DNA of 64,000 bases from Ignavibacteriales bacterium (GTDB lineage: Bacteria; Bacteroidota; Ignavibacteria; UBA10030): NCBI GenBank assembly GCA_016193365.1, contig JACPSI010000042.1, positions 25,126 to 89,125 on the forward strand, in the 5' to 3' direction. A program made the position numbers and the translations under genes. Shown piece after piece: positions 19,458-53,200 of this stretch. The number at the start of each line of letters is the position of its first letter. Position 1 is the first letter of the stretch. The notes beneath the pieces were generated by a model that did no database searches, had not been told where the DNA came from, and saw only the letters and a program-made list of their open reading frames with translations.

Positions 19458-20147
19458 TTACCCTTTGACCGACTCCATGTTTTTTCGCGGCGGGAAAACC
19501 GAGATCCTGTTTTCGGTTCCTTCAAGAAGCCGCTTGATGTTTTTCCTGTGGGAATACACCAGGACGACAGCAACACCGAGACTGAAGAAGACGAGAGTGT
19601 GGTAGCTATGGATCTCATCCGAGAGGATGTTATGACGTATAATGATGGACAAAGGAAAAGCGATGGCGGCTGCCAGAGAACCCAAGGAGACGTACTTCCA
19701 TGCGAAAAACACGATGAAGAAAACAAGTGCAGAGACAGCGAATTCCGTCGGCGCTATGCCTATAAGCATTCCTGCCGCCGTGGCTATCCCCTTGCCGCCT
19801 TTGAATCCGGCAAACACGGTCCAGATATGACCAACGATCGCTGCGGCTCCGCAAATCATCTGTATGATCGTGAAATCGTCGAAAGGCGTCCGGTTATAAA
19901 AGGGCAACGTCGGATCCCAGAAGAGCCTCGCAACAACCGTCGTCGCGAGAACACCTTTCATGACGTCGACAACCATCACGAAAACGCCAGATTTCCATCC
20001 AAGCACGCGGAACACATTTGTACCGCCCGCGTTGCCGCTGCCTTTCGTGCGGATATCGAAGCCGTGCCTCCACTTCGATAGCATCACGCTTGTGGGAATG
20101 GAACCTACGATGTAACTGAGTATGACAACGATGGTCATGTTGACCAT
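19458..20147 (-). CDS. plsY: Glycerol-3-phosphate acyltransferase PlsY (copy 2, divergent paralog)
   Basis: 229 aa with the GSGNAGGTNVFR motif and similar topology. It sits on the other side of gpsA. Confidence 0.85.
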   Translation of the reverse strand: MVNMTIVVILSYIVGSIPTSVMLSKWRHGFDIRTKGSGNAGGTNVFRVLGWKSGVFVMVVDVMKGVLATTVVARLFWDPTLPFYNRTPFDDFTIIQMICGAAAIVGHIWTVFAGFKGGKGIATAAGMLIGIAPTEFAVSALVFFIVFFAWKYVSLGSLAAAIAFPLSIIIRHNILSDEIHSYHTLVFFSLGVAVVLVYSHRKNIKRLLEGTENRISVFPPRKNMESVKG

Positions 20148-39515: not shown

Positions 39516-41069
39516 TCATTTTACTTTCTCTGCAATGGATTTTGCCTGCATGAAGAGAAGAAGATAATCCCTCCCGCCGGCTTTTGAATCTGTGCCAGAC
39601 ATATTAAAGCCTCCGAAGGGATGGACTCCGACAAGAGCCCCCGTGATCTTTCTGTTGATATAAAAATTACCCACGTGGAAAAACTTTTTGGCCTTTTCGA
39701 TTTTCTTCCTATTCTTGGTCCAGACGCCGCCCGTCAGCCCGAATTCCGTGTTGTTCGCGACTTCGAGTGCATCGTCAAAATTTTTCGCTTTGATGATAGC
39801 CAGAACAGGGCCAAAGATTTCCTCCTGGGCAATCGTTGCGTTCGGAGCAACATCGGCGATCACGGTTGGACGAACAAAATAGCCGTCGCCGGAGTTTTCC
39901 TTTTTTCCTCCGGTAATGAGCCGCCCGCCTTCTTTCAAACCCGCTTCAATGTATTTCAGCGTTTTTTCTTCAGAGCCTTTGTTGACCACCGGCCCCATGT
40001 AATTGTTCGGGTCCGACGAATCACCAACTTTAATTTTTCCAACTTTTTCCTTCACGAGGTCAACAAACTTGTCGTACACTTTTTCTACCACAATTGCACG
40101 CGAGGCAGCTGAACATTTTTGACCCTGAAACCCAAATGCCGACGCGACCGTCGCTTGTGCTGCCGCTTCAAGATTCGTCTCGTCGTCGATCATGATGGAA
40201 TCTTTGCCCCCCATTTCAGCAATCACTCTCTTGAGCCATCGCTGACCGGGTTGAACTTTTGCCGCAAGCTCGTTGATGTGTATTCCAACTTCCTTGGATC
40301 CAGTGAAAGCAACAAACCTTGTTTTCGGATGTGAGACCATTGTGTCACCAACTGCACCGCCGGGACCTGTGACGAAATTCAAAACTCCTGCCGGAAGTCC
40401 GACCTCGCGCATGAGGTCGAAGAGAACCCACCCTGTCAACGGCGAATCGCTGGACGGCTTGAGCACCACCGTATTGCCGGTAACGATTGCCGCGGTAGCC
40501 ATGCCCGTCAGAATCGCGAGCGGGAAATTCCACGGCGGCACAACAACGCCAACGCCCAACGGGATATAGACCAGCTCGTTTCTTTCTGTCGGAATTTTTG
40601 TGACAGGTTGCTTACCGGCGTACCTCAACATTTCGCGTCCGTAGAATTCCATAAAATCGATCGCTTCGGCGGTGTCAGCATCTGCTTCCGGCCAGGTTTT
40701 GCCGACTTCATAGACCATCACGGCGCTGAATTCATGCTTGCGCTTTCGCATGATTTTTGCGGCCTTGAACAAATAGTCGGCTCGCTTCTTCGGGTCGACA
40801 TGCTGCCAGCGCTGAAAGGCATCAGCTGCGGTTTCGACCGCCTTTGTTGCCAAGGAGGCATCCGCTTTCTGAAATGTGCCGACAACCTCGCTCGGTTTTG
40901 ACGGGTTGTAGGATTTCAACTTGTCAGCGGTGCGAATTTCCTCGCCGCCGATGACGATGGGATATTCTTTCGAAAACAGAGATTTCACTTTAGCCAACGC
41001 AACTTCCATGGCTTTGCGATTGGCGGGCTTGGAGAAATCAGTGAGGGGTTCGTTTTTAAAGGGCTTCAT
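39516..41069 (-). CDS. L-glutamate gamma-semialdehyde (1-pyrroline-5-carboxylate) dehydrogenase
   Basis: 517 aa ALDH-family. Catalytic residues in EMGGKDS...QGQKCSAASR; P5CDH-type N-terminus. Confidence 0.82.
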   Translation of the reverse strand: MKPFKNEPLTDFSKPANRKAMEVALAKVKSLFSKEYPIVIGGEEIRTADKLKSYNPSKPSEVVGTFQKADASLATKAVETAADAFQRWQHVDPKKRADYLFKAAKIMRKRKHEFSAVMVYEVGKTWPEADADTAEAIDFMEFYGREMLRYAGKQPVTKIPTERNELVYIPLGVGVVVPPWNFPLAILTGMATAAIVTGNTVVLKPSSDSPLTGWVLFDLMREVGLPAGVLNFVTGPGGAVGDTMVSHPKTRFVAFTGSKEVGIHINELAAKVQPGQRWLKRVIAEMGGKDSIMIDDETNLEAAAQATVASAFGFQGQKCSAASRAIVVEKVYDKFVDLVKEKVGKIKVGDSSDPNNYMGPVVNKGSEEKTLKYIEAGLKEGGRLITGGKKENSGDGYFVRPTVIADVAPNATIAQEEIFGPVLAIIKAKNFDDALEVANNTEFGLTGGVWTKNRKKIEKAKKFFHVGNFYINRKITGALVGVHPFGGFNMSGTDSKAGGRDYLLLFMQAKSIAEKVK

Positions 41070-41817: not shown

Positions 41818-44688
41818 TCAATGTGGAGAAGCGGCTCTCGTATTCTCACGTACGAGCGCATTCAACACCGCATCATGCACTCTCGGCCTCACGTCGAAAA
41901 TCTTGGTGCTTGCCCGGGACGGATGTACGCGATTCGTCAGAAAAACGATGATGACCTTTTTTTCCGGATCCACGACAACGGACGTCCCCGTAAAACCTGT
42001 GTGTAAGAATGTTTTCGTTGAGGTCAGCGTTCCGGAAAACGAGCGGTCTGAACTCTTCGTGTCCCATCCGATAGCTCGGCTGCTTTTGTCTGACTGGCGT
42101 GTTGTGAATTGTTTCACGGTTTCTTCTTTGATAAAACGCCTTCCTCCGTACGTACCGCCATTGAGAAGCATTTGAAGCATGATGGAAAGATCGGAGGTTG
42201 TCGAAAATAACCCCGCATGACCCGACACTCCTCCAAGTACTGCTGCATTTTCGTCGTGCACACGGCCGCGCACGGCAATACCGGTACGTTGCCAGAACGT
42301 GTCAACTTCCGTCGGAACGATGCGATCCCAGAGATCCGACGCAGGGTTGTACATGGTGTTTCGCATGCCGAGTGGCTTGAAGAACACCGAGTCGACATAT
42401 TTGTCCAGCCCGACTCCAGTGATTTTCTCTATGAGCTTTCCAATCGTGATCAAACCAAGGTCGCTGTAAATCGTGGAATCTCCCGTTTTGTAAACAAGCG
42501 GAGAAGCGAAGACGGAATCGAGGACGCATTGAGGAGTTGTGCAGAAATCGTAAAATCTCCGCCAGGCCGGAAGCCCGCTGTTATGAACCATGAGATTGTA
42601 CACAGTGAGTTTTTCTTTTCCCCGTTGTCCGAATTGTGGAAGGTGATTTACAATCGGGTCGTTTAAACTCAATTTGCCGTCATCAACCAGTCGCATGATT
42701 GCACTCGTTGTCGAGATGACTTTTGTCACCGAAGCGAGGTCGTAGATCGTATTTTCATGGACGGATTTCGAGTAAACGGCGTAGTCGAAAAACCCGTACC
42801 CTTTGTTGTACACGACGATACCATCTTTCGCAACGAGCAAGACGGCTCCGGGAAAGGCAGAATCCTTTGCGGCGGAATTTATCACGTCATCAACCAGTTT
42901 TAGTTTCTGCGAATTAAACCCCGCCTCTTCCGGAAGACCATCCCGTAACGTGAGCTTTGGATATTCTATGCCTTCACCAAATTTGTAAAGTTCCGGAATC
43001 GTAATCGGCAGTTTTCCTTTTGCCGGTTCTTCAGCAAAAATCACTTCGGCTGCCGCTTGCTGCATGCATTCAGCATCGGAGTAGGTGCAGATGTATGCGT
43101 CGAACGGCGGGAGGTCCATCGCCACGTAGGGATTCCCCCACGCAATGCCGACCATCGGCTTGCCAAGCGTTGAAAGATTCTTTACCAGCGCAACCTGATT
43201 GCTGTCGACAAAACCCGTCAACTCTCCCGAGCGCGTGTAGAGGTGAAGCTGAACCAGCAACATGTCTGCGCGCCTTGCTTTTGCCATTGTCGAATCATGG
43301 TCGAGCTGGTTGCTGTTGGGGCCTATTCTGGACCATCCCATTCTCCCGCGTCTCTGCTGCATCATGAAATGGAACGACCGGCCGTCAGAAAGATCTTCCG
43401 AGTCGGAGATAACGACGTCGAGGATTTTTGACGAATCGACCTTAGATAACGGGAGGATGTTCTTCTGATTACCCAACACCGTGACAGCATTACGGGCGAT
43501 TTCGAGTGCAAGTCGTTGATGTTCAGGAGCGCCAACAGCCTCCGCAACTTTGTCGACGTCGACAAAACGGTTAACGTTGAGGCTCATTCGCTCTTTGACA
43601 GTCAGGAGCTTTCGGACAGAATGGTCTATGCGTTCCACAGAAATCTCGCCTCTCTTGACTGCCGCAACGATCGCGTCAATGGCGATATCCACATCGACCG
43701 GCATCAGGACGATATCTGCGCCCGCTTTTACAGAAAGAACGGCGGCTTCGCCCGGAAGATATTTCTCTGAAACTCCTCTCATTTGAAGTGCGTCGGTGAC
43801 GATAAGGTCCGCAAATTGCAATTCACCTTGAAGAAGCGTTGTCGAGACGTTATGCGAGACTGTTGCAGGAATTCCGACAACGGTGTCATACGCCGGAACC
43901 GACGGATGGCCGACCATGACAGAAAGTGCTCCAGCTTGAATTGCTTCTTTGAACGGAGGAAGCTCGACCGACTGTAATCGTTCTTTGGTTAGGTTCAGGA
44001 CAGAGAGGCCAACGTGCGTGTCAATATCCGTATCGCCATGGCCGGGAAAATGCTTGATCGTTGCTATCATGCCGCCGTCTTGCGTGCCTTTGACGAAGGC
44101 GATGCCCATGTCTGTCACGAGTTTCACGTCGTCACCAAACGCGCGGGTATTAATGACAGGGTTTCTTGCGTTGTTGTTGACGTCTAAAACTGGAGCATAG
44201 TTTTGATGTATGCCAAGTGCCCGGCCTTCAAGCGCCGTTATTCTTCCCAGTTCGTATGCGTATTTTGGATTGTGCGTAGCTCCGATCGCCATTGCGCGAG
44301 GGAACATTGTGGAGTGTCGCACTCTCATGGCCACGCCGTATTCGAAGTCTCCCGCGATCAGAAGAGGAACGTCTGCCAGCTTTTGGAGTTTATTGATCTG
44401 CACTGCGTATTCGTAAACATCGCCGATGGAGAACACAAAATTGCCGATTTTGCGTTTGACTGCGAGGCGCTCCAATTCCTGCCAATGGTCGGAGTTTGCT
44501 GGATAATAGCGTCCCAGAGTCCAGAAGCAGATCAGCTGAGAGACTTTTTCTTCAAGTGTCAGGCGCTTCAGCGTCGATTCCACCCAGGCAGACGACGTTT
44601 GTCGGGTTTGGGAAGACTTGGGAACCGAACCGGCGCAACCGAGCAGAAGGAGTCCGATGGCTGCACAGAGGGTGACGAATTTTTTCAT
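41818..44688 (-). CDS. Bifunctional lipoprotein: glycoside hydrolase family 3 (NagZ-like) N-terminal domain fused to a class-C beta-lactamase/serine-hydrolase domain
   Basis: 956 aa. Lipoprotein signal (LLLGCAGS), GH3 region (AGDFEYGVAMRV..., KHFPGHGDTDIDTH), then S-x-x-K (ASVTK) and a YSD-like motif for the beta-lactamase fold. Confidence 0.85.
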   Translation of the reverse strand: MKKFVTLCAAIGLLLLGCAGSVPKSSQTRQTSSAWVESTLKRLTLEEKVSQLICFWTLGRYYPANSDHWQELERLAVKRKIGNFVFSIGDVYEYAVQINKLQKLADVPLLIAGDFEYGVAMRVRHSTMFPRAMAIGATHNPKYAYELGRITALEGRALGIHQNYAPVLDVNNNARNPVINTRAFGDDVKLVTDMGIAFVKGTQDGGMIATIKHFPGHGDTDIDTHVGLSVLNLTKERLQSVELPPFKEAIQAGALSVMVGHPSVPAYDTVVGIPATVSHNVSTTLLQGELQFADLIVTDALQMRGVSEKYLPGEAAVLSVKAGADIVLMPVDVDIAIDAIVAAVKRGEISVERIDHSVRKLLTVKERMSLNVNRFVDVDKVAEAVGAPEHQRLALEIARNAVTVLGNQKNILPLSKVDSSKILDVVISDSEDLSDGRSFHFMMQQRRGRMGWSRIGPNSNQLDHDSTMAKARRADMLLVQLHLYTRSGELTGFVDSNQVALVKNLSTLGKPMVGIAWGNPYVAMDLPPFDAYICTYSDAECMQQAAAEVIFAEEPAKGKLPITIPELYKFGEGIEYPKLTLRDGLPEEAGFNSQKLKLVDDVINSAAKDSAFPGAVLLVAKDGIVVYNKGYGFFDYAVYSKSVHENTIYDLASVTKVISTTSAIMRLVDDGKLSLNDPIVNHLPQFGQRGKEKLTVYNLMVHNSGLPAWRRFYDFCTTPQCVLDSVFASPLVYKTGDSTIYSDLGLITIGKLIEKITGVGLDKYVDSVFFKPLGMRNTMYNPASDLWDRIVPTEVDTFWQRTGIAVRGRVHDENAAVLGGVSGHAGLFSTTSDLSIMLQMLLNGGTYGGRRFIKEETVKQFTTRQSDKSSRAIGWDTKSSDRSFSGTLTSTKTFLHTGFTGTSVVVDPEKKVIIVFLTNRVHPSRASTKIFDVRPRVHDAVLNALVRENTRAASPH

Positions 44689-44807
44689 GGAGTTGAGGTC
44701 GGAAGAATGAGAAAAACCAAGTCTAAGACAAGAAAAACCTACGAAAGTATGTGGGGAGAAACAACGGAAAAGAGTTATGCGAACGTTTCAAGGCCGCATA
44801 GACAAAA

Positions 44808-44839
44808 GCCGGTCCAGATGTTTGGACGGGCTTTTTTTT
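44808..44839. terminator. Hairpin + T8, terminator-like, downstream of the DUF4153 gene
   Basis: gccggtcc-agatgttt-ggacgggc followed by tttttttt on the plus strand. It reads hairpin + uuuug on the minus strand. Confidence 0.45.
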
Positions 44840-44845
44840 GAGCTT

Positions 44846-44912
44846 GTCATTGCGAGCGTTGTACAGCGAAGCAATCTCACCAGGACGACTCCGCGTCGAG
44901 CCTGTCAGATGT
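44846..44912. repeat. Copy A of a ~70-100 nt inverted-repeat element (homolog of 47832-47928)
   Basis: gtcattgcgagcg...agcgaagcaatctcaccagg...cgcgtcgagcctgtcagatg aligns segment-by-segment with gtcattctgag...agcgaagaatctgattccagg...cgctcgactcagaatgac at 47832. It overlaps the last codons of the DUF4153 gene. Confidence 0.45.
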
Positions 44913-46275
44913 ATCCGAACACAGGCGGAAAGACGATAACGACGATGGCAGCCCACACGGCGTAGACGGGCAAGTAGTTCGTCTGCCATCGCTCAAGGTC
45001 CGTGAACGATCCACGTTCCCTCAAAAAGCGGATGTACAGAACGGCCGACCATGCGAGATTGACGAGGAGGATCACGTTAACCCCCAGAGCGGCCACTCGG
45101 TTAGGGGTGAAGCCGAACTCAGTAATGCGCGCGGAAATCGCCCACAGCGCTACCGCGTCGACCAACAACGCACTGACCACCAGCACCACCTGCATGACAT
45201 CGAAGGGGCCGGCAGGCATTCGGGCATCCCGCGCGGAAACGGAATAGAGCAGCAGGCCCAGGACGACAACCAGGAGAAGGTCAAAGGCGATGAGGACCTC
45301 GCGTTCGATGTCCAGGCCGCGCCCGGTCCAGATCAAAGTCGCTAAGAATGTGACCAGCAGCGCGGCGAAGAAGGGGGTGAAGAGTCGCGTCAACACGGGA
45401 GCCATGTTTTCGATCACGCTCTGCTTTGCCTCCACCAGCCAGGAAGCGACGAGGACGGCCCCGGCAGCCCCGCACGGGATCAGCCACGATTGGATGAACC
45501 ACTCGGCGTCGATGCCGATGGTTTTGAACATCATCATGAGGAACGCGGTGAGCACACCGCCCCCGAGCGCGATCAGGACGTAGTAGATGAACAGCTCGCC
45601 GGAGAATCGAATGAAGTCCATGCGGCCGGCGACCTCATTCCATCGGCTTCCTGCGTATGCAACACCGACTGCGACCCAGAGGGCGATCGGCAAGTGCAGT
45701 GCTGTCAGTGACTCAGTGGAGCCGGGCGACGCGAAGGGATAAACGTTGGCGAACACACCCGCGGCGACGATCGGCGCCGCCAACCACGGAACCGTCTTGG
45801 CGCCGAGCCGGCGCTTCCAGATGAAATAACCGGTCAGGAGCGGCAGTACGAAGAGACTCAGGTTGCGTGCATAGAAGCTCTCATTCTCCTTAAGGTCCAT
45901 CCCGAAAAGTTCGGGCAGCTTGATAAGCATGGCCGCAGCGACCGCAAGAAAAAAGGCGACGAATGCATCCGACCGCACTCCTGCTCCCTGCTCCCTCGAA
46001 TCCGACGGAAGAACGACGAGCTGTTTCCAGAGGCGGTCTGAGTGCTCGCGCGCGAACTCGCGTGAGAGGGCATCGAGCGCCCCCATGCGTTTCACCGCCA
46101 CAAGAAACGCCTCATCAGGGACGAGTCCCGCGTTCATGAGTCCCGCGATCTGTTCGCGCAGATGGTCTTCCAGCTCCGCCACATCAACAGAATGGATCGC
46201 CTGCCGGCGAAGGAGATAGCTCCGCCACTGGTCGATCTGCTCCTCGAGCGTTACTGTATTCGCTGGTGTCGTCAT
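44905..46275 (-). CDS. DUF4153 domain polytopic membrane protein
   Basis: 456 aa with about 10 TM helices and a cytoplasmic N-terminal region. It is markedly GC-richer than its neighbours and immediately downstream of a PadR regulator. Confidence 0.68.
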   Translation of the reverse strand: MTTPANTVTLEEQIDQWRSYLLRRQAIHSVDVAELEDHLREQIAGLMNAGLVPDEAFLVAVKRMGALDALSREFAREHSDRLWKQLVVLPSDSREQGAGVRSDAFVAFFLAVAAAMLIKLPELFGMDLKENESFYARNLSLFVLPLLTGYFIWKRRLGAKTVPWLAAPIVAAGVFANVYPFASPGSTESLTALHLPIALWVAVGVAYAGSRWNEVAGRMDFIRFSGELFIYYVLIALGGGVLTAFLMMMFKTIGIDAEWFIQSWLIPCGAAGAVLVASWLVEAKQSVIENMAPVLTRLFTPFFAALLVTFLATLIWTGRGLDIEREVLIAFDLLLVVVLGLLLYSVSARDARMPAGPFDVMQVVLVVSALLVDAVALWAISARITEFGFTPNRVAALGVNVILLVNLAWSAVLYIRFLRERGSFTDLERWQTNYLPVYAVWAAIVVIVFPPVFGYI

Positions 46276-46278
46276 AGC

Positions 46279-46674
46279 TCAGGCTCCTTGTGGAAGTGGT
46301 GTTGCAAACGCCGCGGTGCCAACCGGAATGAAAATGGAGAGCGCTTTCCAGATGCCGCGCAGCGTCGCGTCAACGGCCTGCCACTGCCGCCGTTCATCGG
46401 TGAGATGCGCCTTGCCCCTGGACGTGATGCGGTAGTACTTGCGACGGCGGCCGCTCCCCGCGACCTCCCATCGCGCCTCGACGTAGCCGAGTCGCTCGAG
46501 CCGATGGAGAACGGGATAGAGCATCCCGTCCGTCCACTCCATACGACCTCCGGACAGTTCTTGAACTCGCTTGATAATGGCGTAGCCGTAGCTGTCCTTT
46601 TTGGCCAGGATTGCCAAAACGATAGGGGTTGAGGAAGCGGCTATCAGGTCCTTGTTGAAGTCCATGGTTTCCAT
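46279..46674 (-). CDS. PadR-family transcriptional regulator
   Basis: Winged helix (ILAILAKKDSYGYAIIKRVQELSGGRMEWTDGMLYPVLHRLERLGYVEARWE). The start was chosen at METMDF..., because the longer ORF to 46755 adds a hydrophobic non-PadR leader. Candidate operator ACATA-N11-TATGT at 46721-46743 upstream. Confidence 0.8.
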   Translation of the reverse strand: METMDFNKDLIAASSTPIVLAILAKKDSYGYAIIKRVQELSGGRMEWTDGMLYPVLHRLERLGYVEARWEVAGSGRRRKYYRITSRGKAHLTDERRQWQAVDATLRGIWKALSIFIPVGTAAFATPLPQGA

Positions 46675-46929
46675 GCGTCGCGCTGGGTTAGTGAATTCGT
46701 GCGATTCTGCATGAGGCAATATACATAGAAGTGTTAGGTATGTCAAGCCTTGCATGTTTTTTTCTTGAGAACTCCGAAGTGACAGTTAGAGACGATGAGC
46801 TCGACAGGTATTTCGAGGCGGTACTAGGAGAGAGATTGGGAGATTGCCGAAGCCTACGTTCAGTATTGTTGCATCGGGATCCATTGGCACGTTGTTATGA
46901 AAGAAGGTGTGGAGAAGCCTTGTCGGGGT

Positions 46930-47634
46930 TCATTTACTTGACATCCACTGGTGTGTCATTCGAGCTAGATCACTCAGGACATCCCCATCCGTTTTTCCCG
47001 AGCTTTTCAGCACATGAAACGAATGGTCCGCGCCGTCGATAACATGTAGCGTTGCGAATTTTCCCAGTTTGTCCACTACAGGCTTCAACAGCGACATCTC
47101 CGCAAAATCGTCTCTCGTGCCCTGCAGAAACAACATCGGCACCGTAACTCTTGAGAGATGTTCTGCCCGCTCAATCGAAGGCTTGCCAGGCGGGTGCAGA
47201 GGGAATCCGAGGAAAACGATTCCACGCACATGAGGCAGCGGCTCCTCAGCTGCGGCGCTTGAGGTCATCCTTCCGCCAAAAGATTTCCCTCCTGCAAACA
47301 ACGGAAGTCCCGGTGCCAGCTTTGCCGCTGTTTCAACAGCTGAGCGAACTGTCGCATAAATAACCGGTTTTGGATCGGGACGTTTGCCTCCCTGCTCCAT
47401 GTAAGGAAACTGGTAACGGAATGTGCCGATTCCATGTTCTGCCAGTTTATGTGATATGGCCTCGAGGAATTTCTGCCGCATACCGGCTCCCGCGCCGTGC
47501 GCGAGGACGAGAAGGGCCTTGGCGTTGTCGGGGAGCATGAGGATTGCGCTGACGGTGCCAACAGATTTGGAGGCAATAAAAGACGTGTTGGTGATTTCAG
47601 TTGAAAGCATGTCGGAAAGTAAGAAGAAATCCAA
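46930..47634 (-). CDS. Alpha/beta-hydrolase-fold protein (COG3571/KANL3-like predicted hydrolase)
   Basis: 234 aa. LLVLAHGAGAGM, nucleophile-elbow-like GGKSFGG, and a C-terminal DH motif. Confidence 0.72.
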   Translation of the reverse strand: MDFFLLSDMLSTEITNTSFIASKSVGTVSAILMLPDNAKALLVLAHGAGAGMRQKFLEAISHKLAEHGIGTFRYQFPYMEQGGKRPDPKPVIYATVRSAVETAAKLAPGLPLFAGGKSFGGRMTSSAAAEEPLPHVRGIVFLGFPLHPPGKPSIERAEHLSRVTVPMLFLQGTRDDFAEMSLLKPVVDKLGKFATLHVIDGADHSFHVLKSSGKTDGDVLSDLARMTHQWMSSK

Positions 47635-47669
47635 CGAAGTCGAAGATGAGTAATTGACACACCCCTACA

Positions 47670-47779
47670 CCCCTCTCTCAACGCTCATTCCCACACACGA
47701 GAGGGGACTTTTTAGAGCTAAGGAAAAACGAGCGTAGGAATTCCCCTCTGTGTGATGGAATGTGTACAGGAGAGAGGGG
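47670..47779. repeat. Pair of ~37-bp hairpin-forming units in mutually inverted orientation
   Basis: cccctctctcaacgctcattcccacacacgagagggg (47670-47706) and cccctctgtgtgatggaatgtgtacaggagagagggg (47743-47779). The reverse complement of the second aligns with the first. Each has 7-8 bp terminal stems, cccctctc/gagagggg. Confidence 0.45.
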
Positions 47780-47831
47780 ATAAAGGGGTGTGTGCTTTGT
47801 CTTCACCCCGAAATCTCGGTGCAACTAGATT

Positions 47832-47928
47832 GTCATTCTGAGAGAAGCCCCGAAGGGGCGGAGCGAAGAATCTGATTCCAGGTATTAATCAGATTCTTCG
47901 TCTCGCATAAGCGCTCGACTCAGAATGA
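47832..47928. repeat. Copy B: ~97-nt element with 11-bp terminal inverted repeats enclosing two internal hairpins (candidate MITE/REP-like element or structured RNA)
   Basis: gtcattctgag ... ctcagaatgac terminal inverted repeats. Internal hairpins are gccccgaaggggc and cgaagaatctgatt-N-aatcagattcttcg. It is homologous to 44846-44912. Confidence 0.5.
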
Positions 47929-48017
47929 CATACTATTTGTGCACCTCGATTAAAGTCCCGCGGAATATGCTCCACGCACAAACCCGTCGATTTCGACCCC
48001 GCCCCACATCCGCGATC

Positions 48018-48212
48018 TTACTTGCCTTTGCTCAACCAAAGCGAAAGAAAAAGACGATTCATCCCGAGCGGAGACGAGGGATGGTTTTCGTTAAACTCGT
48101 TTAGCCGCATCAGCATTGCGCTGACGTTTCCGGAGGATTTGGAGGCGAGGAAGGTCGTGTTTGTTATTTTGGGTGATGACATGGTTGTTCTCTGTCCGTA
48201 GGGACACGGCAT
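48018..48212 (-). pseudogene. Decayed N-terminal fragment of an alpha/beta-hydrolase paralog
   Basis: The 64-aa ORF MPCPYGQRTTMSSPKITNTTFLASKSSGNVSAMLMRLNEFNENHPSSPLGMNRLFL aligns with the N-terminus of the 46930-47634 hydrolase (MLSTEITNTSFIASKSVGTVSAILMLPDNAKALLVLAHGAGAGMRQKFL), then stops. Confidence 0.5.
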
Positions 48213-48225
48213 GCCGTGTCCCTAC
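48198..48225. promoter_or_regulatory. 28-bp perfect palindrome upstream of ligD (candidate operator)
   Basis: gtagggacacggcatgccgtgtccctac is a perfect two-fold symmetric site 74 nt upstream of the chosen ligD start. No U-tract follows on either strand. Confidence 0.45.
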
Positions 48226-48298
48226 AAAGCGTAACCCCACAATAACAAACAATTCCAACAAAGCAAATCGGCGCCATTCTCATTATATTTGCAATCCA

Positions 48299-50623
48299 AT
48301 GGCGCGCACATCCCAATACGTCAAGGTTGGCAAACGAACTGTCGAACTCTCGAATCTCAAAAAAATCCTCTTTGCGGATGACGAGATCCTGAAGGCTGAG
48401 TTAATCCAGTTTTACCTCAAACTGGCTCCTACCATCCTCGCACATATCAAAGGCCGTCCCCTTTCCGTAGTCCGCTATCCGGATGGTGTCGGCGGGGATT
48501 CGTTTTTCCAAAAAAACCGTCCCGACTGGGCTCCTGCCTGGATGGACCATGCCGAGTTGGGCGACAAGGAAAAAGGCAAAACCATCGACTACATGATTGC
48601 CACCGAGGAGGCCTCGCTAGTCTTTCTGGCAAACCTTGCATGCATTGAACTGCACCAGATGCATTCGCGATCGCCGAATTTCGACAAGCCGGATTATTTT
48701 GTTGTCGATCTCGACCCGCCGGAGAGTTTTCCGTTTTCCAAAATCGTCGGCATCGCGTTCGAATTCAAGGAACACCTCGAATCGTTCGGCTATCATCCAT
48801 TTGTGAAAACGACGGGTAAGAAGGGGCTGCATATCGTCTCGCCGCTCGAACCTAAGTGGAGTTTCGACGAGGTCTTTGAAGCAGCAAAAGCCATCGCCCA
48901 GCCGTTCGTCGACAGCCACAAATCGACAACGACGCTGCACATCAAAAAAGAGTACCGCAAGGACAAGATGCTGATCGACATCTACCGCAACCGCACGTTT
49001 CAAACAATCATTTCTCCGTATAGTGTACGCGGAAGCAGAGGAGCTCCGGTTTCGACTCCATTGAATTGGGAAGAACTCGAACATTTGAAATCGCCAGCCG
49101 AGTTGAATCTGGAAACCGTTCCCGAACGAGTCATTGCAAATGGGGACCCGTGGGAAGCTATCGGCGCTTATGCAACCAGTTTGCACACCGACCGCAAATC
49201 CAAACGGCCAAAACCTCTTGAAAAAGAGAAAGCTGTCGAGTCTCTCAAAACATATGACAAGAAAAGGAGCTTTAACAAGACGCCCGAACCCGGCCCAAAA
49301 GTTCCCGCGGGAAAGGGCAACTCTTTTGTTGTGCATCGTCACCACGCATCGCGACTTCATTACGATTTGCGGCTGGAAAAAGGAGGCACACTGAAATCGT
49401 GGGCTGTCCCCAAAGGACTCCCGCCGCGTCCGGGCATTAAACGGCTTGCCGTCAACGTGGAAGACCATCCTATGGATTATCTCACCTTCGAAGGAAAGAT
49501 TCCGAAAGGCGAATACGGCGGAGGTGACGTGTGGGTGTTTGCGCTGGGCAAATATGTCATTACAAAAGAAAAGAAAGACGGATTCTATTTTCGACTTCAG
49601 AGCAAAGAGATCAACGCGGAGTATCGCACATTCCCGACGGACGGCAAGAACTGGCTGCTGGAACGACTCGACAACCCGCAAATCGATTTTCTGAGAGACA
49701 ATGTTGAGTATATGCTTTCAGAAAGCCGCGAAAAGGTGCCTACTTCAGGCGATTATCTTTATGAAGTGAAGTGGGACGGAATTCGCGCAATGATCTCGCT
49801 GGATGAAGGAGTCGTGAAAATCCGCAGCCGCAATAACAAAGACATCACCAAGAGTTTTCCCGAATTGCTCATCCCCGACAAAGCATTCCGTGCGACCAAT
49901 GCGCTTATCGATTGCGAAATAGTTTGCCTGGATAAGTCGGGAAAACCCGTGTTTAAAGATGTCATCAACCGCATGCACCAAACGACTGAAGGAGCGATTG
50001 CCCGCGCGAGAGCAAAATTCCCCGCAGTCTGTTATGTTTTCGACTGCCTCTATCTCGACGGCCGCGCTATTGTGAACGAACCGCTCACACGGCGGCGTGT
50101 CTGGCTTAAGGATGTCGTTCGCCCGGATACGCCGTATCGAGTCAGCGAGGTCGTTGAAGAAGGCGAGGATCTTTTTGAGGCTGCAAAGCAAATGGGGCTT
50201 GAAGGGATCATGGCAAAAGAGAGGAACAGTCAGTACGTCGTCGGCAAGCGCAGCTCTTACTGGCTGAAAGTCAAAACCAGGCAAACGGCGGATTGCGTGA
50301 TCATCGGCTACACGAAAGGGAAAGGAAGCCGCGACTCTGCTTTTGGTGCGCTCCACCTTGCTCAGAAGAAGGACGGCGACCTTGTGTACGTCGGCAAGGT
50401 CGGTACCGGCTTCGATGACCGGATGTTGAAATCGATTTACCTGGAGCTCAAAAAGTTTCGGAAAATCAAAAAACCCATCAAGCAAAAAACCCTCGACGAT
50501 GTTGCGACCATCTGGATCGAACCAAAGCTGTTTTGTGAAGTCCAATACGCCTCCCTGACCAAAGACAAGATGCTTCGCGAGCCTGTGTTTTTGAGGTTGC
50601 GGCCGGATTTGTCCAACGAGTGA
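48299..50623 (+). CDS. ligD: ATP-dependent DNA ligase LigD, three-domain (polymerase/primase - phosphoesterase - ligase)
   Basis: Pol domain (FFQKNRPDW, VVDLDPPE, KTTGKKGLHIV), PE domain (FVVHRHHASRLHYDLRLE), and ligase domain (EVKWDGIR KxDG motif, then OB fold). The start was chosen at MARTSQYVKV (ATG 48299). The longest ORF from 48161 uses an alternative start and overlaps the palindrome. Confidence 0.9.
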   Translation: MARTSQYVKVGKRTVELSNLKKILFADDEILKAELIQFYLKLAPTILAHIKGRPLSVVRYPDGVGGDSFFQKNRPDWAPAWMDHAELGDKEKGKTIDYMIATEEASLVFLANLACIELHQMHSRSPNFDKPDYFVVDLDPPESFPFSKIVGIAFEFKEHLESFGYHPFVKTTGKKGLHIVSPLEPKWSFDEVFEAAKAIAQPFVDSHKSTTTLHIKKEYRKDKMLIDIYRNRTFQTIISPYSVRGSRGAPVSTPLNWEELEHLKSPAELNLETVPERVIANGDPWEAIGAYATSLHTDRKSKRPKPLEKEKAVESLKTYDKKRSFNKTPEPGPKVPAGKGNSFVVHRHHASRLHYDLRLEKGGTLKSWAVPKGLPPRPGIKRLAVNVEDHPMDYLTFEGKIPKGEYGGGDVWVFALGKYVITKEKKDGFYFRLQSKEINAEYRTFPTDGKNWLLERLDNPQIDFLRDNVEYMLSESREKVPTSGDYLYEVKWDGIRAMISLDEGVVKIRSRNNKDITKSFPELLIPDKAFRATNALIDCEIVCLDKSGKPVFKDVINRMHQTTEGAIARARAKFPAVCYVFDCLYLDGRAIVNEPLTRRRVWLKDVVRPDTPYRVSEVVEEGEDLFEAAKQMGLEGIMAKERNSQYVVGKRSSYWLKVKTRQTADCVIIGYTKGKGSRDSAFGALHLAQKKDGDLVYVGKVGTGFDDRMLKSIYLELKKFRKIKKPIKQKTLDDVATIWIEPKLFCEVQYASLTKDKMLREPVFLRLRPDLSNE

Positions 50624-50954: not shown

Positions 50955-52271
50955 ATGGAAACTGAACAACGAAAAAAAGTAGGCCTCATCACAGCCACCT
51001 CACTCGTCGTGGGGAACATGATTGGCTCCGGGCTCTTCATGCTTCCCGCTGCGTTGGCAGCATACGGAGGCATCAGTTTGGTGGGATGGGTTGTTTCCGG
51101 TCTCGGAGCGATGTCGCTTGCAATTGTCTATGGCTGGCTTGCAAAGCTCCATCCAAAAACCACCGGCGGGCCGTACGCATACACCTACATCGGGATGGGC
51201 GACTTTGCGGCTTTTCTCGTTGCGTGGGGATACTGGATTTCTGTGTGGTGCGCGAATGCCGCGATCACCGTTGCGTTTGTCAGCTACTTGAGCGCATTCG
51301 TTCCTGCTCTTGCCACCGACCCGTCGTTTGCAATTGGGACCGGCCTCGCTGCAATTTGGCTTCTCACGTGGGTCAACACGCTGGGAATCCGCGAAGCGGG
51401 CGCTGTTCAAGTTCTCACAACGATACTCAAACTTGTTCCACTTCTGCTCATCGCCGTTGCGGGCCTTTTCTATATTCGCTTTGAGCATTTTACACCGTTT
51501 AACCTGAGCACCGAATCCTCCCTCGGTGCCGTCACCAGCACAACAACGCTGACGCTGTTTGCGTATCTCGGACTTGAGTGCGCGACGATTCCGTCGGAAA
51601 ACATCGCGAACGCGCAAAAAACTGTCGCGAGAGCAACTCTTCTTGGTACTTATCTTACAACGGCGGTTTATATCCTGAGCACGATTGCGGTCATGGGACT
51701 GATTCCGCCGGATCTGCTGCGTACTTCGCAAGCACCCTTCGCTGATGCCGCCGCGTCGATCTGGGGAGAACCGGCAAGATACCTGGTTGCCGCAGCAGCT
51801 GTCATTGCAACTTTTGGAGCGCTCAACGGTTGGATTCTTGTACAGGGGCAGGTCCCTTTTGCGGCCGCCCGCGACAGGCTGTTCCCGGCTGTGTTCAGCA
51901 AAGAAAACAAAAAAGGCGTTCCCGGCATCGGGATCGTCATTTCCAGCGTACTGGTCTCCCTCCTTATGGGCATGAACTTCACCAATACTCTTGCCGACAC
52001 ATACAAGTACATGATCTTGCTGTCGACACTCACCGTGCTCGTACCTTATGTTCTTTCGATGGCCTCTTATGCCATCATCATTACAAAGGACAAAGCGCCG
52101 AACAGAAGCGTGTGGCCAAGGCTCTTCGTTGCTTTTCTTGGTTTTCTTTTTTCCCTCTGGGCAATCGTCGGGTCGGGCCGGGAAATTGTCTATTGGGGTT
52201 TCATCATGCTCATTGCAGGTATCCCTTTTTATGTCGTCATGAAATTCAAAAAAGAAAAAAATTCTTTGTGA
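50955..52271 (+). CDS. APC-superfamily amino acid permease (basic amino acid/polyamine antiporter-like)
   Basis: 438 aa, 12 TM. N-terminal GLITATSLVVGNMIGSGLFMLPA consensus of APC transporters. Confidence 0.85.
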   Translation: METEQRKKVGLITATSLVVGNMIGSGLFMLPAALAAYGGISLVGWVVSGLGAMSLAIVYGWLAKLHPKTTGGPYAYTYIGMGDFAAFLVAWGYWISVWCANAAITVAFVSYLSAFVPALATDPSFAIGTGLAAIWLLTWVNTLGIREAGAVQVLTTILKLVPLLLIAVAGLFYIRFEHFTPFNLSTESSLGAVTSTTTLTLFAYLGLECATIPSENIANAQKTVARATLLGTYLTTAVYILSTIAVMGLIPPDLLRTSQAPFADAAASIWGEPARYLVAAAAVIATFGALNGWILVQGQVPFAAARDRLFPAVFSKENKKGVPGIGIVISSVLVSLLMGMNFTNTLADTYKYMILLSTLTVLVPYVLSMASYAIIITKDKAPNRSVWPRLFVAFLGFLFSLWAIVGSGREIVYWGFIMLIAGIPFYVVMKFKKEKNSL

Positions 52272-53152
52272 AAACGACCTGCCATTCCGAATTTGGCAAA
52301 ATCAAAACGGTCGTTATCAAAAGAGCGACGAACGCATTTGTCAGTGAACGACTTCTTGAGGCTCAGTGGCGCGACCTTCATTTTCTGGAAAAACCTGATT
52401 TGGCTCAATCAGCAAAGGAATTCGACAGCTTCGAAACGATCCTGAAGACAAACGAAGCAACATTACTTTATCTCCCGCGTGACGAGAGTGTGACCATCGA
52501 TTCCATTTATTGCCGCGATGCTGTCATCACCACCGACCATGGAATGATCCTTTGCAATATGGGAAAGGCCTCCAGAATTCATGAGCCGGAAGCTTTGCAA
52601 CGGTTCCTTGAAGAACATCAATTTGAAGTGTTGGGACGCATTCAGGCTCCGGGAACCCTCGAGGGGGGAGATTGTGCCTGGATTAATGAGAACACGCTGG
52701 CGGTCGGTTTATCATCAAGAACAAATGCAGAGGGGATAAGACAATTGAAACGAATGCTGACTCCGTTTAATATTGATGTTCTTCTCGTTTCCCTGCCGCA
52801 TTACAAAGGCCTGCAGGATGTGTTTCACCTCATGTCGGTGTTCAGCCCGGTCGACACCGACCTTGCCGTTGTCTACCCGCCATTGATGCCCTTGGATTTT
52901 CGCAACGAGTTGCTTCGGAGGGATTTTCGGCTTATCGAAGTGCCTGAACGCGAGTTCGAATCCATGGGATGCAATGTTCTGGCAATCGCGCCGCGCAGAT
53001 GCGTAATGATCAATGAAAATCCGGCAACAAAAGCAGCGCTTGAGAAGGCAGGGTGTGAAGTGTTTGAATACGCAGGCCGTGAAATAAGCCTCAAAGGTGG
53101 CGGCGGGCCGACATGCCTGACGAGACCCATTGACAGATACGTGCATGAGTAG
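52268..53152 (+). CDS. Amidinotransferase-superfamily hydrolase (dimethylarginine dimethylaminohydrolase / arginine-deiminase / citrulline-hydrolase-like)
   Basis: About 294 aa. C-terminal nucleophile context GGGGPTCLTRPI is typical of the guanidino-group-modifying fold. The likely start is GTG at 52268, overlapping the permease stop (gtgA/tGA). The ORF-track N-terminal extension from 51830 overlaps the permease out of frame. Confidence 0.68.
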   Translation: MKTTCHSEFGKIKTVVIKRATNAFVSERLLEAQWRDLHFLEKPDLAQSAKEFDSFETILKTNEATLLYLPRDESVTIDSIYCRDAVITTDHGMILCNMGKASRIHEPEALQRFLEEHQFEVLGRIQAPGTLEGGDCAWINENTLAVGLSSRTNAEGIRQLKRMLTPFNIDVLLVSLPHYKGLQDVFHLMSVFSPVDTDLAVVYPPLMPLDFRNELLRRDFRLIEVPEREFESMGCNVLAIAPRRCVMINENPATKAALEKAGCEVFEYAGREISLKGGGGPTCLTRPIDRYVHE

Positions 53153-53200
53153 AAATAAACAAGAAAAGTAACGATATTAAGCAAAACCATCGGAGGAATC

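What the first reader, a model, noticed from the sequence alone, without database searches (positions are those of the whole stretch)
44846..47928. About 3-kb segment bounded by two copies of an inverted-repeat element, containing a GC-rich PadR+DUF4153 pair
Copy A (44846-44912) and copy B (47832-47928) align block by block: gtcattSYgag...agcgaagMaatct...cagg...cgNNtcgaNNcNNtcagaatg. B has perfect 11-bp terminal inverted repeats. Between them lie a DUF4153 membrane protein and PadR regulator whose GC content is visibly higher than the rest of the window (runs like ggccgcgcccggtccagatc), and an alpha/beta hydrolase. Just outside copy B lies a decayed fragment of a hydrolase paralog. This pattern suggests repeat-mediated acquisition or replacement of this block. 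No integrase or transposase is present.
Basis: partly seen in the sequence, partly recalled or inferred. Interest (0 to 1): 0.6.

Follow-up and report, generated by a model that had tools for sequence, protein, structure and literature searches.

The report
Acquired gene cassette beside hairpin repeats
A GC-rich regulator-plus-membrane-protein gene pair was horizontally acquired into a variable slot of an Ignavibacteriales genome. The "inverted-repeat elements" beside it are diverged copies of a widespread hairpin repeat that sit at the rearrangement joints, not the ends of a mobile element.

Summary
The sequence features are real, but the two "copies" are not equivalent.

- **Copy B:** a complete inverted doublet of a roughly 30-40 nt oriented hairpin unit (GTCAT-xyz-GAG...CGA(A)-x'y'z'-ATC).
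- **Copy A:** a single unit. Its right half matches B no better than chance and overlaps the conserved end of the membrane gene.
- **Third unit:** lies at 48058-48083.

The unit belongs to a cross-phylum family that is also found on more than 120 viral contigs. Its stem triplets co-vary, and it usually occurs as convergent doublets. It most resembles the Neisseria NTS/dRS3 "Ssn-related" hairpins, but it fails their published search pattern.

The GC shift is real. The membrane gene has the highest GC3 of 52 ORFs in the window.

PadR plus the membrane gene form a self-contained 1.9-kb cassette. It is about 80-89% identical at the nucleotide level in unrelated genome contexts, including a 65-70% GC contig whose composition it matches.

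The slot between the hydrolase and the glycosidase gene holds different cargo in related genomes: nothing, a methylase, a restriction-modification system, or a kinase.

A 26-codon remnant of the resident hydrolase sits next to ligD. This indicates replacement by a homeologous allele.

A causal role for the repeats is unproven. Overall the case is ordinary to moderately interesting.

The parts
44806..44841 (.). Terminator-like hairpin 'T' with T-runs on both strands. It is backbone DNA and is the hydrolase terminator in relatives.
   Evidence: Terminator scan finds it on both strands. Its homologue directly follows the hydrolase stop in L172 and lies at L171 5341-5377.
44846..44876 (+). Repeat unit A, a single oriented hairpin unit (GTCAT-TGC-GAGCG..AGCGAA-GCA-ATC). 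It is the left half of a truncated doublet.
   Evidence: Found by regex. It is 78-86% identical to the L171 units. It aligns to the L171 doublet through ATCTCACCA(G/T)GA and then diverges.
44877..44904 (.). Junction between the repeat spacer remnant and the cassette's 3' flank.
   Evidence: It matches B no better than chance. The CAGG after the stop codon is shared with cassette homologues.
44905..46275 (-). 456-aa polytopic membrane protein with an N-terminal 'permease prefix domain 1'. It is the GC-rich cassette gene (GC3 0.755).
   Evidence: NCBIfam NF038403 at 43 bits. More than 8000 homologues, the top 120 at 79-87% identity. GC3.
46279..46674 (-). PadR-family regulator of 131 aa. The open frame extends to 46755, but the promoter lies inside that extension.
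   Evidence: PF03551 at E = 8e-25. Promoter position. An independent gene call in L088 also gives 131 aa.
46718..46746 (-). The cassette's own sigma-70-type promoter (TTGACA-17-TATATT), overlapping a palindromic operator-like sequence that is conserved in all cassette homologues.
   Evidence: 11 of 12 consensus positions match. Conserved block shown.
46783..46929 (.). 147-nt spacer between the hydrolase stop and the conserved cassette. Its origin is unknown. The 36 nt nearest the cassette are shared only with L171.
46930..47610 (-). Full-length alpha/beta hydrolase (226 aa, Abhydrolase_11) with normal GC. It is the functional, probably imported homeologous, allele.
   Evidence: PF20408. Closest homologues are 82% identical. 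It is 78.8% nt identical to L171, the highest among the relatives compared.
47657..47794 (.). Long imperfect palindrome 'H' (CACACCCCT...AGGGGTGTGTG), a different hairpin element.
   Evidence: DNA fold of -38.1 kcal/mol, z = -7.4. A hairpin cluster of similar style occupies the same position in L171.
47832..47929 (.). Copy B, a complete convergent doublet. The units are 47832-47872 (+) and 47892-47929 (-), both with triplet TCT, separated by a 19-nt spacer.
   Evidence: This is the commonest architecture of the family: 51 of 70 neighbouring pairs are '+ -'.
47938..48046 (.). Segment 'S', non-coding. In L002 its homologue lies downstream of the hydrolase, next to a repeat doublet.
   Evidence: blastn gives 77% identity to L002 4481-4577.
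48058..48083 (+). Repeat unit U3, a degenerate single unit (TTCAT-CCC-GAGCGGAGACGA-GGG-ATG). It occupies the same position relative to S as the first unit of the L002 doublet.
48106..48183 (-). Remnant of the resident hydrolase gene: start codon plus 26 codons, after which similarity is lost.
   Evidence: pN/pS is 0.31-0.42 against the full copy and orthologues. The adjacent intergenic DNA is orthologous to the ligD-hydrolase spacer of L001.
48299..50623 (+). ligD (primase-polymerase, phosphoesterase and ligase domains), the conserved flank on one side of the locus.
   Evidence: Pfam. Synteny in L001-L003, L171, L172 and L174.
41818..44688 (-). GH3 glycosidase / beta-lactamase-domain fusion, the conserved flank on the other side of the variable slot.
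   Evidence: Pfam. Synteny in L002, L172 and L174.

Best explanation
The locus is a recombination-shaped variable slot in an Ignavibacteriales chromosome. It lies between two conserved genes: the hydrolase next to ligD, and a GH3 glycosidase.

**Shown**
1. PadR plus the membrane gene form a self-contained 1.9-kb cassette with its own promoter and operator. The cassette circulates horizontally among bacteria of different phyla. In this 51% GC host it keeps a high-GC signature.
2. Related genomes carry other cargo, or none, in the same slot.
3. The resident hydrolase has been reduced to its first 26 codons beside ligD. A second, full-length hydrolase allele now does the job.
4. The 'inverted-repeat elements' are diverged copies of a widespread oriented hairpin repeat: GTCAT, a 5-bp stem whose inner triplet co-varies, a conserved GAG...CGAAG internal loop, a variable tip, then ATC. 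Its usual form is a convergent doublet such as copy B.

**Inferred**
- One homeologous replacement brought in the stretch B-H-hydrolase-cassette-A, roughly 44846-48085. The donor was a relative organised like L171.
- One crossover was illegitimate. It left the hydrolase stump behind.
- The hairpin units lie at or within about 20 nt of every junction. This is either because such hairpins are preferred break or join points in incoming or replicating single-stranded DNA, or because they settle in the non-essential DNA that such events create.
- The units are not transposon ends, and nothing in the window could move the block.
For: **Source and synteny**
- The source is an Ignavibacteriales MAG.
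- L002 has GH3, about 500 nt, hydrolase, then ligD, with no cassette.
- L174 has a methyltransferase in the slot. L172 has a kinase. L171 has a restriction-modification pair followed by the same PadR cassette.

**Cassette**
- Conserved limits are 44898-46782.
- The neighbourhood differs in each of L081, L083-L087 and L176.
- Membrane-gene nt identity is 79-89% between all hosts, including the 65-71% GC contig L176. There its GC3 (0.83-0.89) matches its neighbours.
- In the window its GC3 is the highest of 52 ORFs.
- It has its own promoter.

**Hydrolase remnant**
- The ligD-side spacer is shared with L001, including the GGGACACGGCNNGCCGTGTCCC hairpin.
- pN/pS of the remnant against the full copy and orthologues is 0.31-0.42. 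This is the same as between functional orthologues, with pS = 0.62 against the full copy.
- The full copy is nearest to L171: 78.8% nt overall, and the lowest 5' pS at 0.28.
- Like L171, it is preceded by a same-family doublet plus a second hairpin.

**Arrangement**
- Three independent assemblies confirm 46218-48471 at 99.6% identity or better.

**Repeat family**
- Using a motif that does not require complementarity, 21 of 80 matches have perfectly complementary triplets, against 0-2 of 34-46 in shuffles.
- In viral contigs, 106 of 139 matches are complementary, with 6 different triplets.
- 51 of 70 neighbouring pairs are convergent doublets.
- B folds with z = -8.7.
Against: - The single-event replacement is inferred from only five roughly equidistant relatives. 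The two closest relatives (L001, L011) have contigs that stop at the critical place.
- The remnant is only 26 codons, so the pN/pS and 'nearest to L171' arguments rest on few sites.
- Segment S lies on the other side of the hydrolase in L002. At least one extra rearrangement, or mobility of S, is therefore needed.
- The terminator hairpin T lies before the cassette in L171 but after it in the window. The two cassette insertions may be independent.
- The window's repeat units are weak members of the family. A profile built from the viral copies finds only half-unit hits at E = 0.07-5, and single units do not fold better than shuffles.
- The left junction (44800-46200) is not covered by the independent assemblies.
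Confidence: 0.55

Rival explanations
1. Independent, unrelated events. The cassette alone was inserted between the hydrolase stop and its terminator. Separately, a partial duplication or insertion put about 570 nt (remnant, U3, S, B, H) between ligD and the original hydrolase. The hairpin repeats are passive settlers in spare intergenic DNA.
For: - The conserved cassette ends at 44898 and 46782 and excludes the hydrolase.
- The hydrolase has host-like GC. Its distance to relatives (74-79% aa) is in proportion to that of ligD.
- Terminator T sits on different sides of the cassette in the window and in L171.
- The repeat family is widespread and mostly intergenic.
Against: - An in-situ duplicate should have started identical and then decayed neutrally. 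Instead the two 78-nt copies differ at pS = 0.62 with pN/pS = 0.31, like functional orthologues. The stump also keeps its start codon and reading frame.
- The flanks of the full copy share nothing with the flanks of the stump.
Confidence: 0.25
2. The roughly 3-kb block 44846-47929 is one mobile unit whose ends are two copies of an inverted-repeat element. It would be moved in trans by a transposase or recombinase encoded elsewhere, like a pair of MITEs mobilising the DNA between them.
For: - B has perfect 11-bp terminal inverted repeats.
- A and B belong to one family.
- The block contains foreign-looking genes.
- A displaced hydrolase stump lies just outside B.
Against: - A is a single truncated unit and B is a full doublet.
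- There is no target-site duplication around B or around the block.
- The cassette occurs in seven other contexts without these repeats at its ends.
- L171 has a same-family doublet in the position of B, but its cassette is separated from the hydrolase by a restriction-modification system.
- No mobility gene was found among the 47 window ORFs scanned.
Confidence: 0.07
3. Vertical inheritance with differential loss. The PadR-membrane pair is ancestral to this lineage and was lost from some relatives. Its high GC reflects amino-acid and codon constraints of a highly conserved membrane protein, not foreign origin.
For: - The pair is GC-richer than its neighbours in every moderate-GC host examined.
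- L171 has it in the same slot.
- The protein is unusually conserved, at 79-87% across the top 120 clusters.
Against: - The neighbourhoods are entirely different in L081, L083-L087 and L176.
- Nucleotide identity to the copy on a 65-71% GC, Gemmatimonadota-labelled contig (79.9%) equals that between Ignavibacteria-like hosts.
- GC3 tracks the host only in high-GC genomes.
- Three of five equidistant relatives lack it in this slot, and each has different cargo.
Confidence: 0.1
4. Assembly artefact: a chimeric MAG contig that joins a GC-rich foreign fragment into an Ignavibacteriales backbone at repeats.
For: - The repeats break short-read assemblies. Logan contig L090 ends 19 nt before copy B.
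- The left junction (44800-46200) has no independent coverage.
Against: - Three independent assemblies reproduce stump-S-B-H-hydrolase-PadR and the start of the membrane gene at 99.6% identity or better.
- L171 independently shows the cassette in the same slot.
- Backbone synteny continues on both sides.
Confidence: 0.03

Closest known systems
Neisseria Transformation Sequence (NTS) and Ssn-related motifs (SRM), which contain dRS3. These are hairpin repeats bound and cut as single-stranded DNA by the small GIY-YIG nuclease SsnA (Nat Commun 2025, PMC11893778; read).
   Same: - The element is oriented, with GTCAT directly 5' of a short palindrome.
- The palindrome begins ATT.. and ends ..AAT.
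- A C follows it immediately (ATC), and in canonical family members this is followed by CAG (NTS: ATCYRG).
- It is intergenic and clustered around variable genes.
- Simple-stem relatives in L009 and L016 match the published SRM pattern, and one of them fits dRS3 (ATTCCC-N8-GGGAAT).
- NTS is reported to modulate integration of incoming DNA.
   Different: - The window's units and the canonical GTCATTGCGAGCGAAGCGAAGCAATCCAG type fail the published degenerate SRM pattern.
- They have only a 5-bp outer stem, a conserved purine-rich internal loop (GAG / CGAA) and a GCGAAGC-type or variable tip.
- No ssn-like GIY-YIG gene is present in the window or next to 251 units examined.
- Copy number in the source genome is unknown.
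REP / REPIN elements with RAYT transposases (Bertels and Rainey 2011, PMC3116915; listed).
   Same: - Short imperfect palindromes with a conserved 5' head.
- The typical unit of occurrence is two inverted copies separated by a short spacer that form one long hairpin, as in copy B.
- Singlets look like decayed doublets, as in copy A.
   Different: - The head is GTCAT, not GTAG (from my own knowledge of REP).
- No RAYT (Y1 transposase) was seen in the window.
- REPINs are described as vertically inherited within lineages. This family spans phyla and viral contigs.
Neisserial intergenic mosaic elements (dRS3 + RS arrays) and 'minimal mobile elements' (Bentley et al. 2007, PMC1797815; Saunders and Snyder 2002, cited there).
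   Same: - Alternative small gene cassettes, including restriction-modification systems, sit between the same conserved flanking genes in different genomes, with no mobility genes of their own.
- Hairpin repeats alternate with short non-coding segments (here U3-S-B-H) next to the variable genes.
   Different: - The organism is a different phylum, with no evidence of natural competence.
- The arrays here are short (1-4 units).
- The exchange mechanism, homologous recombination in the flanks, is inferred and not tested.
PadR regulators paired with 'permease prefix domain 1' membrane proteins (NCBIfam NF038403; TIGR03433 padR_acidobact).
   Same: - A PadR gene lies immediately upstream of a membrane protein whose N-terminus matches NF038403 at 43 bits, against a cut-off of 30.
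- A palindromic operator-like sequence overlaps the promoter.
   Different: - The membrane part is not an FtsX/MacB-type permease. It is remotely DUF4153-like and below Pfam threshold.
- PadR scores 88 bits, below the TIGR03433 cut-off of 101.8.
- The function is untested.

Membership tests
NTS / Ssn-related motif (SRM) hairpin repeats | Conserved oriented 5' head (C)GTCAT / HGTCWY directly upstream of the palindrome | tested here: met
   A, B+ and B- start TGTCAT. U3 has TTCAT.
NTS / Ssn-related motif (SRM) hairpin repeats | Palindromic stem able to form a hairpin, maintained by compensatory change | tested here: met
   Triplets TGC, TCT, CCC, CCT, TCC, ACT, GCT and CGC each pair with their complement. 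21 of 80 matches are complementary against 0-2 in shuffles, and 106 of 139 in viral contigs.
NTS / Ssn-related motif (SRM) hairpin repeats | C immediately 3' of the palindrome, then YRG | tested here: inconclusive
   ATC is present in A, B+ and B-, but U3 has ATG. What follows is TCA or TGA in the window, against CAG in the commonest family members.
NTS / Ssn-related motif (SRM) hairpin repeats | Match to the published degenerate pattern HGTCWYN(0-2)YYVSBRHN(0-5)WNVSBRGN(0-2)RNCYNB | tested here: not met
   None of A, B+, B-, U3 or the canonical unit matches. Units in L009 and L016 do match.
NTS / Ssn-related motif (SRM) hairpin repeats | A small GIY-YIG (cd10448) ssn gene in the genome, typically flanked by the motif | not testable with these tools
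   None was found in the 64-kb window or near units in fetched loci. The rest of the source genome could not be searched.
NTS / Ssn-related motif (SRM) hairpin repeats | Genome-wide enrichment over shuffled sequence | not testable with these tools
   There are four units in 64 kb, all within 3.3 kb. The whole genome was unavailable.
REPIN / RAYT | Two inverted REP units with a short spacer forming a long hairpin | tested here: met
   Copy B has z = -8.7. 51 of 70 neighbouring pairs are convergent.
REPIN / RAYT | Single-copy RAYT (Y1 transposase) gene flanked by the repeats | not testable with these tools
   Absent from the ORFs scanned in the window.
MITE | Terminal inverted repeats plus a target-site duplication | tested here: not met
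   Terminal inverted repeats are present in B, but the flanks (..CTAGATT | B | ATACTAT..) are not duplicated. A has no second end.
Integron cassette / attC | Core sites RYYYAAC...GTTRRRY flanking a promoterless ORF, with an integron integrase nearby | tested here: not met
   The ends are GTCAT...ATGAC. The cassette has its own promoter. No integrase was found. The core-site consensus is from my own knowledge.
Minimal-mobile-element-type variable slot | Alternative cassettes between the same conserved flanking genes in related genomes, with no mobility genes | tested here: met
   The hydrolase-to-GH3 slot holds nothing (L002), a methyltransferase (L174), a kinase (L172), a restriction-modification pair plus PadR (L171), or PadR plus the membrane gene (window).
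Pfam DUF4153 (PF13687) | Score at or above the gathering threshold | tested here: not met
   7.4 bits against 27, E = 3. Homologues at 33% identity on Bacillus plasmids are annotated DUF4153.
PadR family (PF03551) | Score at or above the gathering threshold | tested here: met
   87 bits against 27.

The most novel reading that the evidence does not exclude
The GTCAT-stem-GAG...CGAAG-stem-ATC hairpin is the recognition site of an uncharacterised single-strand-specific nuclease or recombinase in Bacteroidota/Ignavibacteria and their phages. That enzyme would be an Ssn-like system with a different motif grammar. Its cuts in incoming or replicating single-stranded DNA would create the break points at which cassettes such as the PadR-membrane pair, restriction-modification systems and homeologous alleles are swapped at hot spots like this one.
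Probability: 0.15. Interest if true: 0.65.

Novelty: new variant of a known kind. Interest (0 to 1): 0.38.

Why it matters
The locus itself is an ordinary example of a small horizontally acquired cassette in a variable chromosomal slot. Two by-products have wider use.

1. **The hairpin repeat.** It is a coherent family with co-varying stems. It spans several phyla and more than 120 viral contigs, and it shares the head and tail of the Neisseria NTS/SRM repeats while escaping the published search pattern. If it is served by an Ssn-like enzyme, the known range and sequence grammar of that system would be wider than described. These repeats could then be used to predict recombination joints in uncultured genomes.

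2. **The cassette.** The PadR plus 'permease-prefix' membrane pair is exceptionally conserved (about 80-89% nt identity) and moves between phyla. This marks it as a candidate for a selectable, portable sensing or resistance function that has not been studied.

Tried and rejected
- **Rfam:** no family reached gathering score in the window. Only chance-level hits appeared at E up to 10 in 44650-48350.
- **tRNA/tmRNA:** none in the window, so there is no tRNA-type attachment site.
- **Exact-protein look-up of the membrane protein:** not on record.
- **Metagenome scan with the hydrolase:** It was useless for synteny.
- **Covariance model of the unit:** not built. MAFFT cannot place the 1-nt register shift between TGC-type and xCT-type units. 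I used a complementarity test that does not presuppose pairing and a hand-aligned nhmmer profile.
  - That profile splits the window's units into half-hits at E = 0.07-5, so it supports membership only weakly.
- **Thermodynamic folding of single units:** not better than shuffles.
- **GIY-YIG search:** a motif search in the window and all loci, and clustering of 549 small ORFs near units in viral contigs, found no recurrent nuclease neighbour.
- **Plasmid and phage collections:** no close copy of the cassette.
- **Literature searches:** searches with the repeat's DNA words and with the peptide strings it encodes found nothing for the GAGCGAAGCGAAG type. The NTS paper surfaced through the simple-stem variant. 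Its supplementary tables are not held.
- **Possible decayed unit at 46829-46880:** considered because of a shared 8-mer, GAGATTGC. Rejected as unsupported.
- **Circular-permutation (excised circle) idea:** this would explain why terminator T sits on different sides of the cassette in the window and in L171. Rejected because T directly follows the hydrolase in L172, which has no cassette.

Full report
**1. What is in the sequence**

The window is about 51% GC and is filled with housekeeping genes, among them dnaG, groES/EL, nadE, ppdK, lpxB/K, smc, tpiA, gatB and sucC. It comes from an uncultured Ignavibacteriales bacterium. The membrane protein is 100% identical to a protein of an 'Ignavibacteriales bacterium' MAG on a 98.8-kb contig.

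Reading the + strand, the region contains the following:

| Coordinates | Strand | Feature |
|---|---|---|
| 41818-44688 | - | GH3/beta-lactamase-domain gene |
| 44806-44841 | both | Terminator-like hairpin T |
| 44846-44876 | + | Repeat unit A |
| 44905-46275 | - | 456-aa membrane protein |
| 46279-46674 | - | PadR |
| 46746-46718 | - | Near-consensus promoter |
| 46930-47610 | - | Abhydrolase_11 hydrolase |
| 47657-47794 | . | Long hairpin H |
| 47832-47929 | . | Copy B |
| about 47938-48046 | . | Non-coding segment S |
| 48058-48083 | + | Third repeat unit, U3 |
| 48106-48183 | - | 26-codon stump of a second hydrolase |
| 48299-50623 | + | ligD |

**2. Check of the observation**

Copy B is as described. 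It has 11-bp perfect terminal inverted repeats and an inner 14-bp inverted repeat. Its single-strand fold is -32 kcal/mol (z = -8.7).

B is really two inverted copies of one unit. The unit is GTCAT, a triplet, GAG, a variable tip, (A)CGA(A), the complementary triplet, then ATC.

Copy A is one such unit only.
- Plain alignment of A with B is barely above background: 14 of 2000 shuffles, and about 1% of other window segments, score as high.
- The right half of A is at chance level.
- A's terminal 'tcagatg' is the stop codon and last codons (VFGYI*) of the membrane gene, which are conserved in homologues that carry no repeat.
- A aligns well with a doublet in relative L171, through the unit and about 10 nt of spacer, and then breaks off. 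A is therefore a truncated doublet.

The GC shift is real. GC3 is 0.755 for the membrane gene, the highest of 52 ORFs. It is 0.654 for PadR, against a range of 0.46-0.68 for the others.

'DUF4153' is not supported at Pfam's threshold. 'Permease prefix domain 1' is supported.

**3. The repeat family**

A search that fixes only the non-pairing parts of the unit finds perfectly complementary triplets in 21 of 80 matches in about 2 Mb of fetched loci. Shuffles give 0-2.

- 106 of 139 of those matches have a complementary 3' triplet followed by AT.
- Six different triplets occur.

Members occur in loci labelled Opitutaceae, Bacteroidetes and Ignavibacteriae. Versions with a simple perfect stem occur in a deltaproteobacterial and a Nitrospira locus.

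Neighbouring units are mostly convergent doublets with 15-40 nt spacers, which is the architecture of copy B. This holds for 51 of 70 pairs.

The window's own copies are divergent. They carry odd apical insertions, so a profile built from the viral copies finds them only as half-hits at E = 0.07-5. Single units do not fold better than shuffles. The window holds no other copy.

**4. Comparison with relatives**

A ligD-based scan of species-representative genomes, and look-ups of hydrolase homologues, gave five roughly equidistant relatives (ligD 77-80% nt identical).

All five have ligD and the hydrolase as a divergent pair. In four of them (L002, L172, L174 and, by inference, L171) GH3 lies beyond the hydrolase. 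What lies between the hydrolase and GH3 differs:

| Locus | Content of the hydrolase-to-GH3 slot |
|---|---|
| L002 | About 500 nt of non-coding DNA with S and a repeat doublet |
| L174 | An orphan N6/N4 methyltransferase |
| L172 | A small ORF and a Ser/Thr kinase-TPR protein |
| L171 | A methyltransferase + EcoO109I-like restriction pair, then hairpin T, then the same PadR cassette; the contig ends there |
| Window | The PadR + membrane cassette |

In L172, hairpin T directly follows the hydrolase stop. T is therefore backbone DNA. In the window, the cassette plus unit A lies between the hydrolase and T.

**5. The cassette is a horizontally moving module**

The conserved block is 44898-46782. 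It ends a few bases past the stop codon and begins about 35 nt upstream of the -35 box.

Seven other copies at 79-89% nt identity sit in seven different neighbourhoods.
- One lies on a 65-71% GC contig of a Gemmatimonadota-labelled MAG, next to a tRNA gene. Its GC3 there (0.83-0.89) matches its neighbours.
- In the 50-55% GC hosts it is always GC-richer than its neighbours.
- Identity between that high-GC copy and the window's copy (79.9%) equals the identity among Ignavibacteria-like hosts.

This pattern fits repeated transfer from high-GC donors with partial amelioration. It does not fit vertical descent. No close copy is on sequenced plasmids or phages.

**6. The two hydrolases**

The stump sits in the ancestral position. 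The DNA between it and ligD is orthologous to the ligD-hydrolase spacer of L001, the closest relative with sequence there. Both share a GGGACACGGCNNGCCGTGTCCC palindrome.

The stump and the full copy are only 72% identical. Their differences are mostly synonymous (pS = 0.62, pN/pS = 0.31), exactly as between functional orthologues (0.28-0.38). They therefore diverged as working genes in different lineages, and the stump was inactivated recently.

The full copy is nearest to L171. As in L171, it is preceded by a same-family doublet and a second hairpin.

The simplest history is a homeologous replacement.
- DNA from an L171-like relative carried doublet, H, hydrolase and cassette.
- It replaced the resident hydrolase from codon 27 onward.
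- One junction was illegitimate, at stump | U3.

This is inference. Two observations show that more than one event has shaped the locus: S is placed differently in L002, and T lies on different sides of the cassette in the window and in L171.

Three independent short-read assemblies reproduce 46218-48471 at 99.6% identity or better.

**7. Role of the repeats**

Units lie at or within about 20 nt of every junction: T | A-cassette, H-B | S, S | U3 and U3 | stump.

This is suggestive, but it does not separate cause from consequence. Repeats that insert into spare DNA also end homology blocks.

The block is not a repeat-bounded transposon.
- Its two 'ends' are unequal.
- There is no target duplication.
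- The cassette travels without these repeats elsewhere.
- No mobility gene is in the window.

**8. Comparison with known systems**

The closest described elements are the Neisseria NTS (CGTCATTCCCGCGMAVGCGGGAATCYRG, which contains dRS3) and the wider 'Ssn-related motifs'. These are bound and cut as single-stranded DNA by the 94-aa GIY-YIG nuclease SsnA and modulate integration of transforming DNA (PMC11893778).

The present family shares the GTCAT head, the ATT...AAT stem ends and the following C. In canonical copies it also shares the CAG tail.

The published degenerate pattern matches the simple-stem copies in L009 and L016. It does not match the window's units or the canonical GAGCGAAGCGAAG type. 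No ssn-like gene could be found with the sequence available.

The doublet architecture parallels REPINs.

The variable slot with restriction-modification and other small cassettes parallels neisserial 'minimal mobile elements' and NIME arrays (PMC1797815).

I therefore file the repeats as a new variant of a known kind of hairpin repeat, and the locus as an ordinary variable slot.

**9. Verdict**

- Observation: partly confirmed.
- Interpretation: partly supported. Acquisition and replacement hold. A repeat-bounded mobile block does not.
- Interest: modest.

Noticed in passing
window 47657-47794: A 138-nt imperfect palindrome (CACACCCCTACACCCCTCTCTC...GAGAGAGGGGATAAAGGGGTGTGTG) with a DNA fold of -38 kcal/mol, z = -7.4. 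It is unrelated to the GTCAT repeat. L171 has a hairpin cluster of the same style (CCCTCTCC-TTTTA-GGAGAGGG) at the same position upstream of its hydrolase.
   Followed up: partly
window 48198-48225: A perfect 28-nt palindrome, GTAGGGACACGGCATGCCGTGTCCCTAC, lies between the hydrolase stump and ligD. It is conserved in L001 (positions about 108-131) but absent from L171, L172 and L174. It may be an operator or a further hairpin repeat.
   Followed up: partly
L002 4277-4320 and 4699-4745: An approximately 45-nt direct duplication of the GH3 promoter-proximal sequence (..AAAACTACGAAA.TAAAGGC..) brackets the ~380 nt that contain segment S and the repeat doublet. It looks as if that piece was inserted with a long target duplication.
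   Followed up: no
L177-L296 (IMG/VR viral contigs): The canonical unit GTCATTGCGAGCGAAGCGAAGCAATCCAG and its TCT and CCT variants occur in more than 120 viral contigs, often as doublets between phage structural genes. They generate spurious ORFs with strings such as ILRFAQNDK and VILSEAKNL.
   Followed up: partly
L176 2515-2590: In the high-GC (Gemmatimonadota-labelled) contig, the PadR-membrane cassette lies about 280 nt downstream of a sequence that reads as a tRNA gene by eye. I did not run ARAGORN on it. tRNA genes are classic integration sites, but no integrase is on the contig.
   Followed up: no
window 50955-54055: Ku (53201-54055) is separated from ligD by an amino-acid permease and another gene. 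In L174 and L175, Ku directly adjoins ligD. The other flank of ligD has therefore also been remodelled in this lineage.
   Followed up: no
window 46700-46750, and all cassette homologues: A conserved palindromic sequence (consensus ACATACATAGAACTGTTATGTATA) overlaps the cassette promoter. It is probably the PadR operator, which would imply autoregulation.
   Followed up: no
L009 12405-12474 and 14386-14462; L016 5649-5806 and 13361-13428: In a deltaproteobacterial and a Nitrospira locus, simple-stem doublets that match the published SRM pattern lie immediately downstream of ligD. They bracket segments of roughly 1.9 kb and 7.5 kb. The content of those segments was not examined.
   Followed up: no
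window 17668-18282 and 19458-20147; 13119-14606 and 39516-41069: The window contains two plsY-type (G3P_acyltransf) paralogues and two aldehyde dehydrogenase paralogues. The repeat finder's 26.4-kb-spaced matches (D5, D12, D13) are the aldehyde dehydrogenase pair.
   Followed up: no
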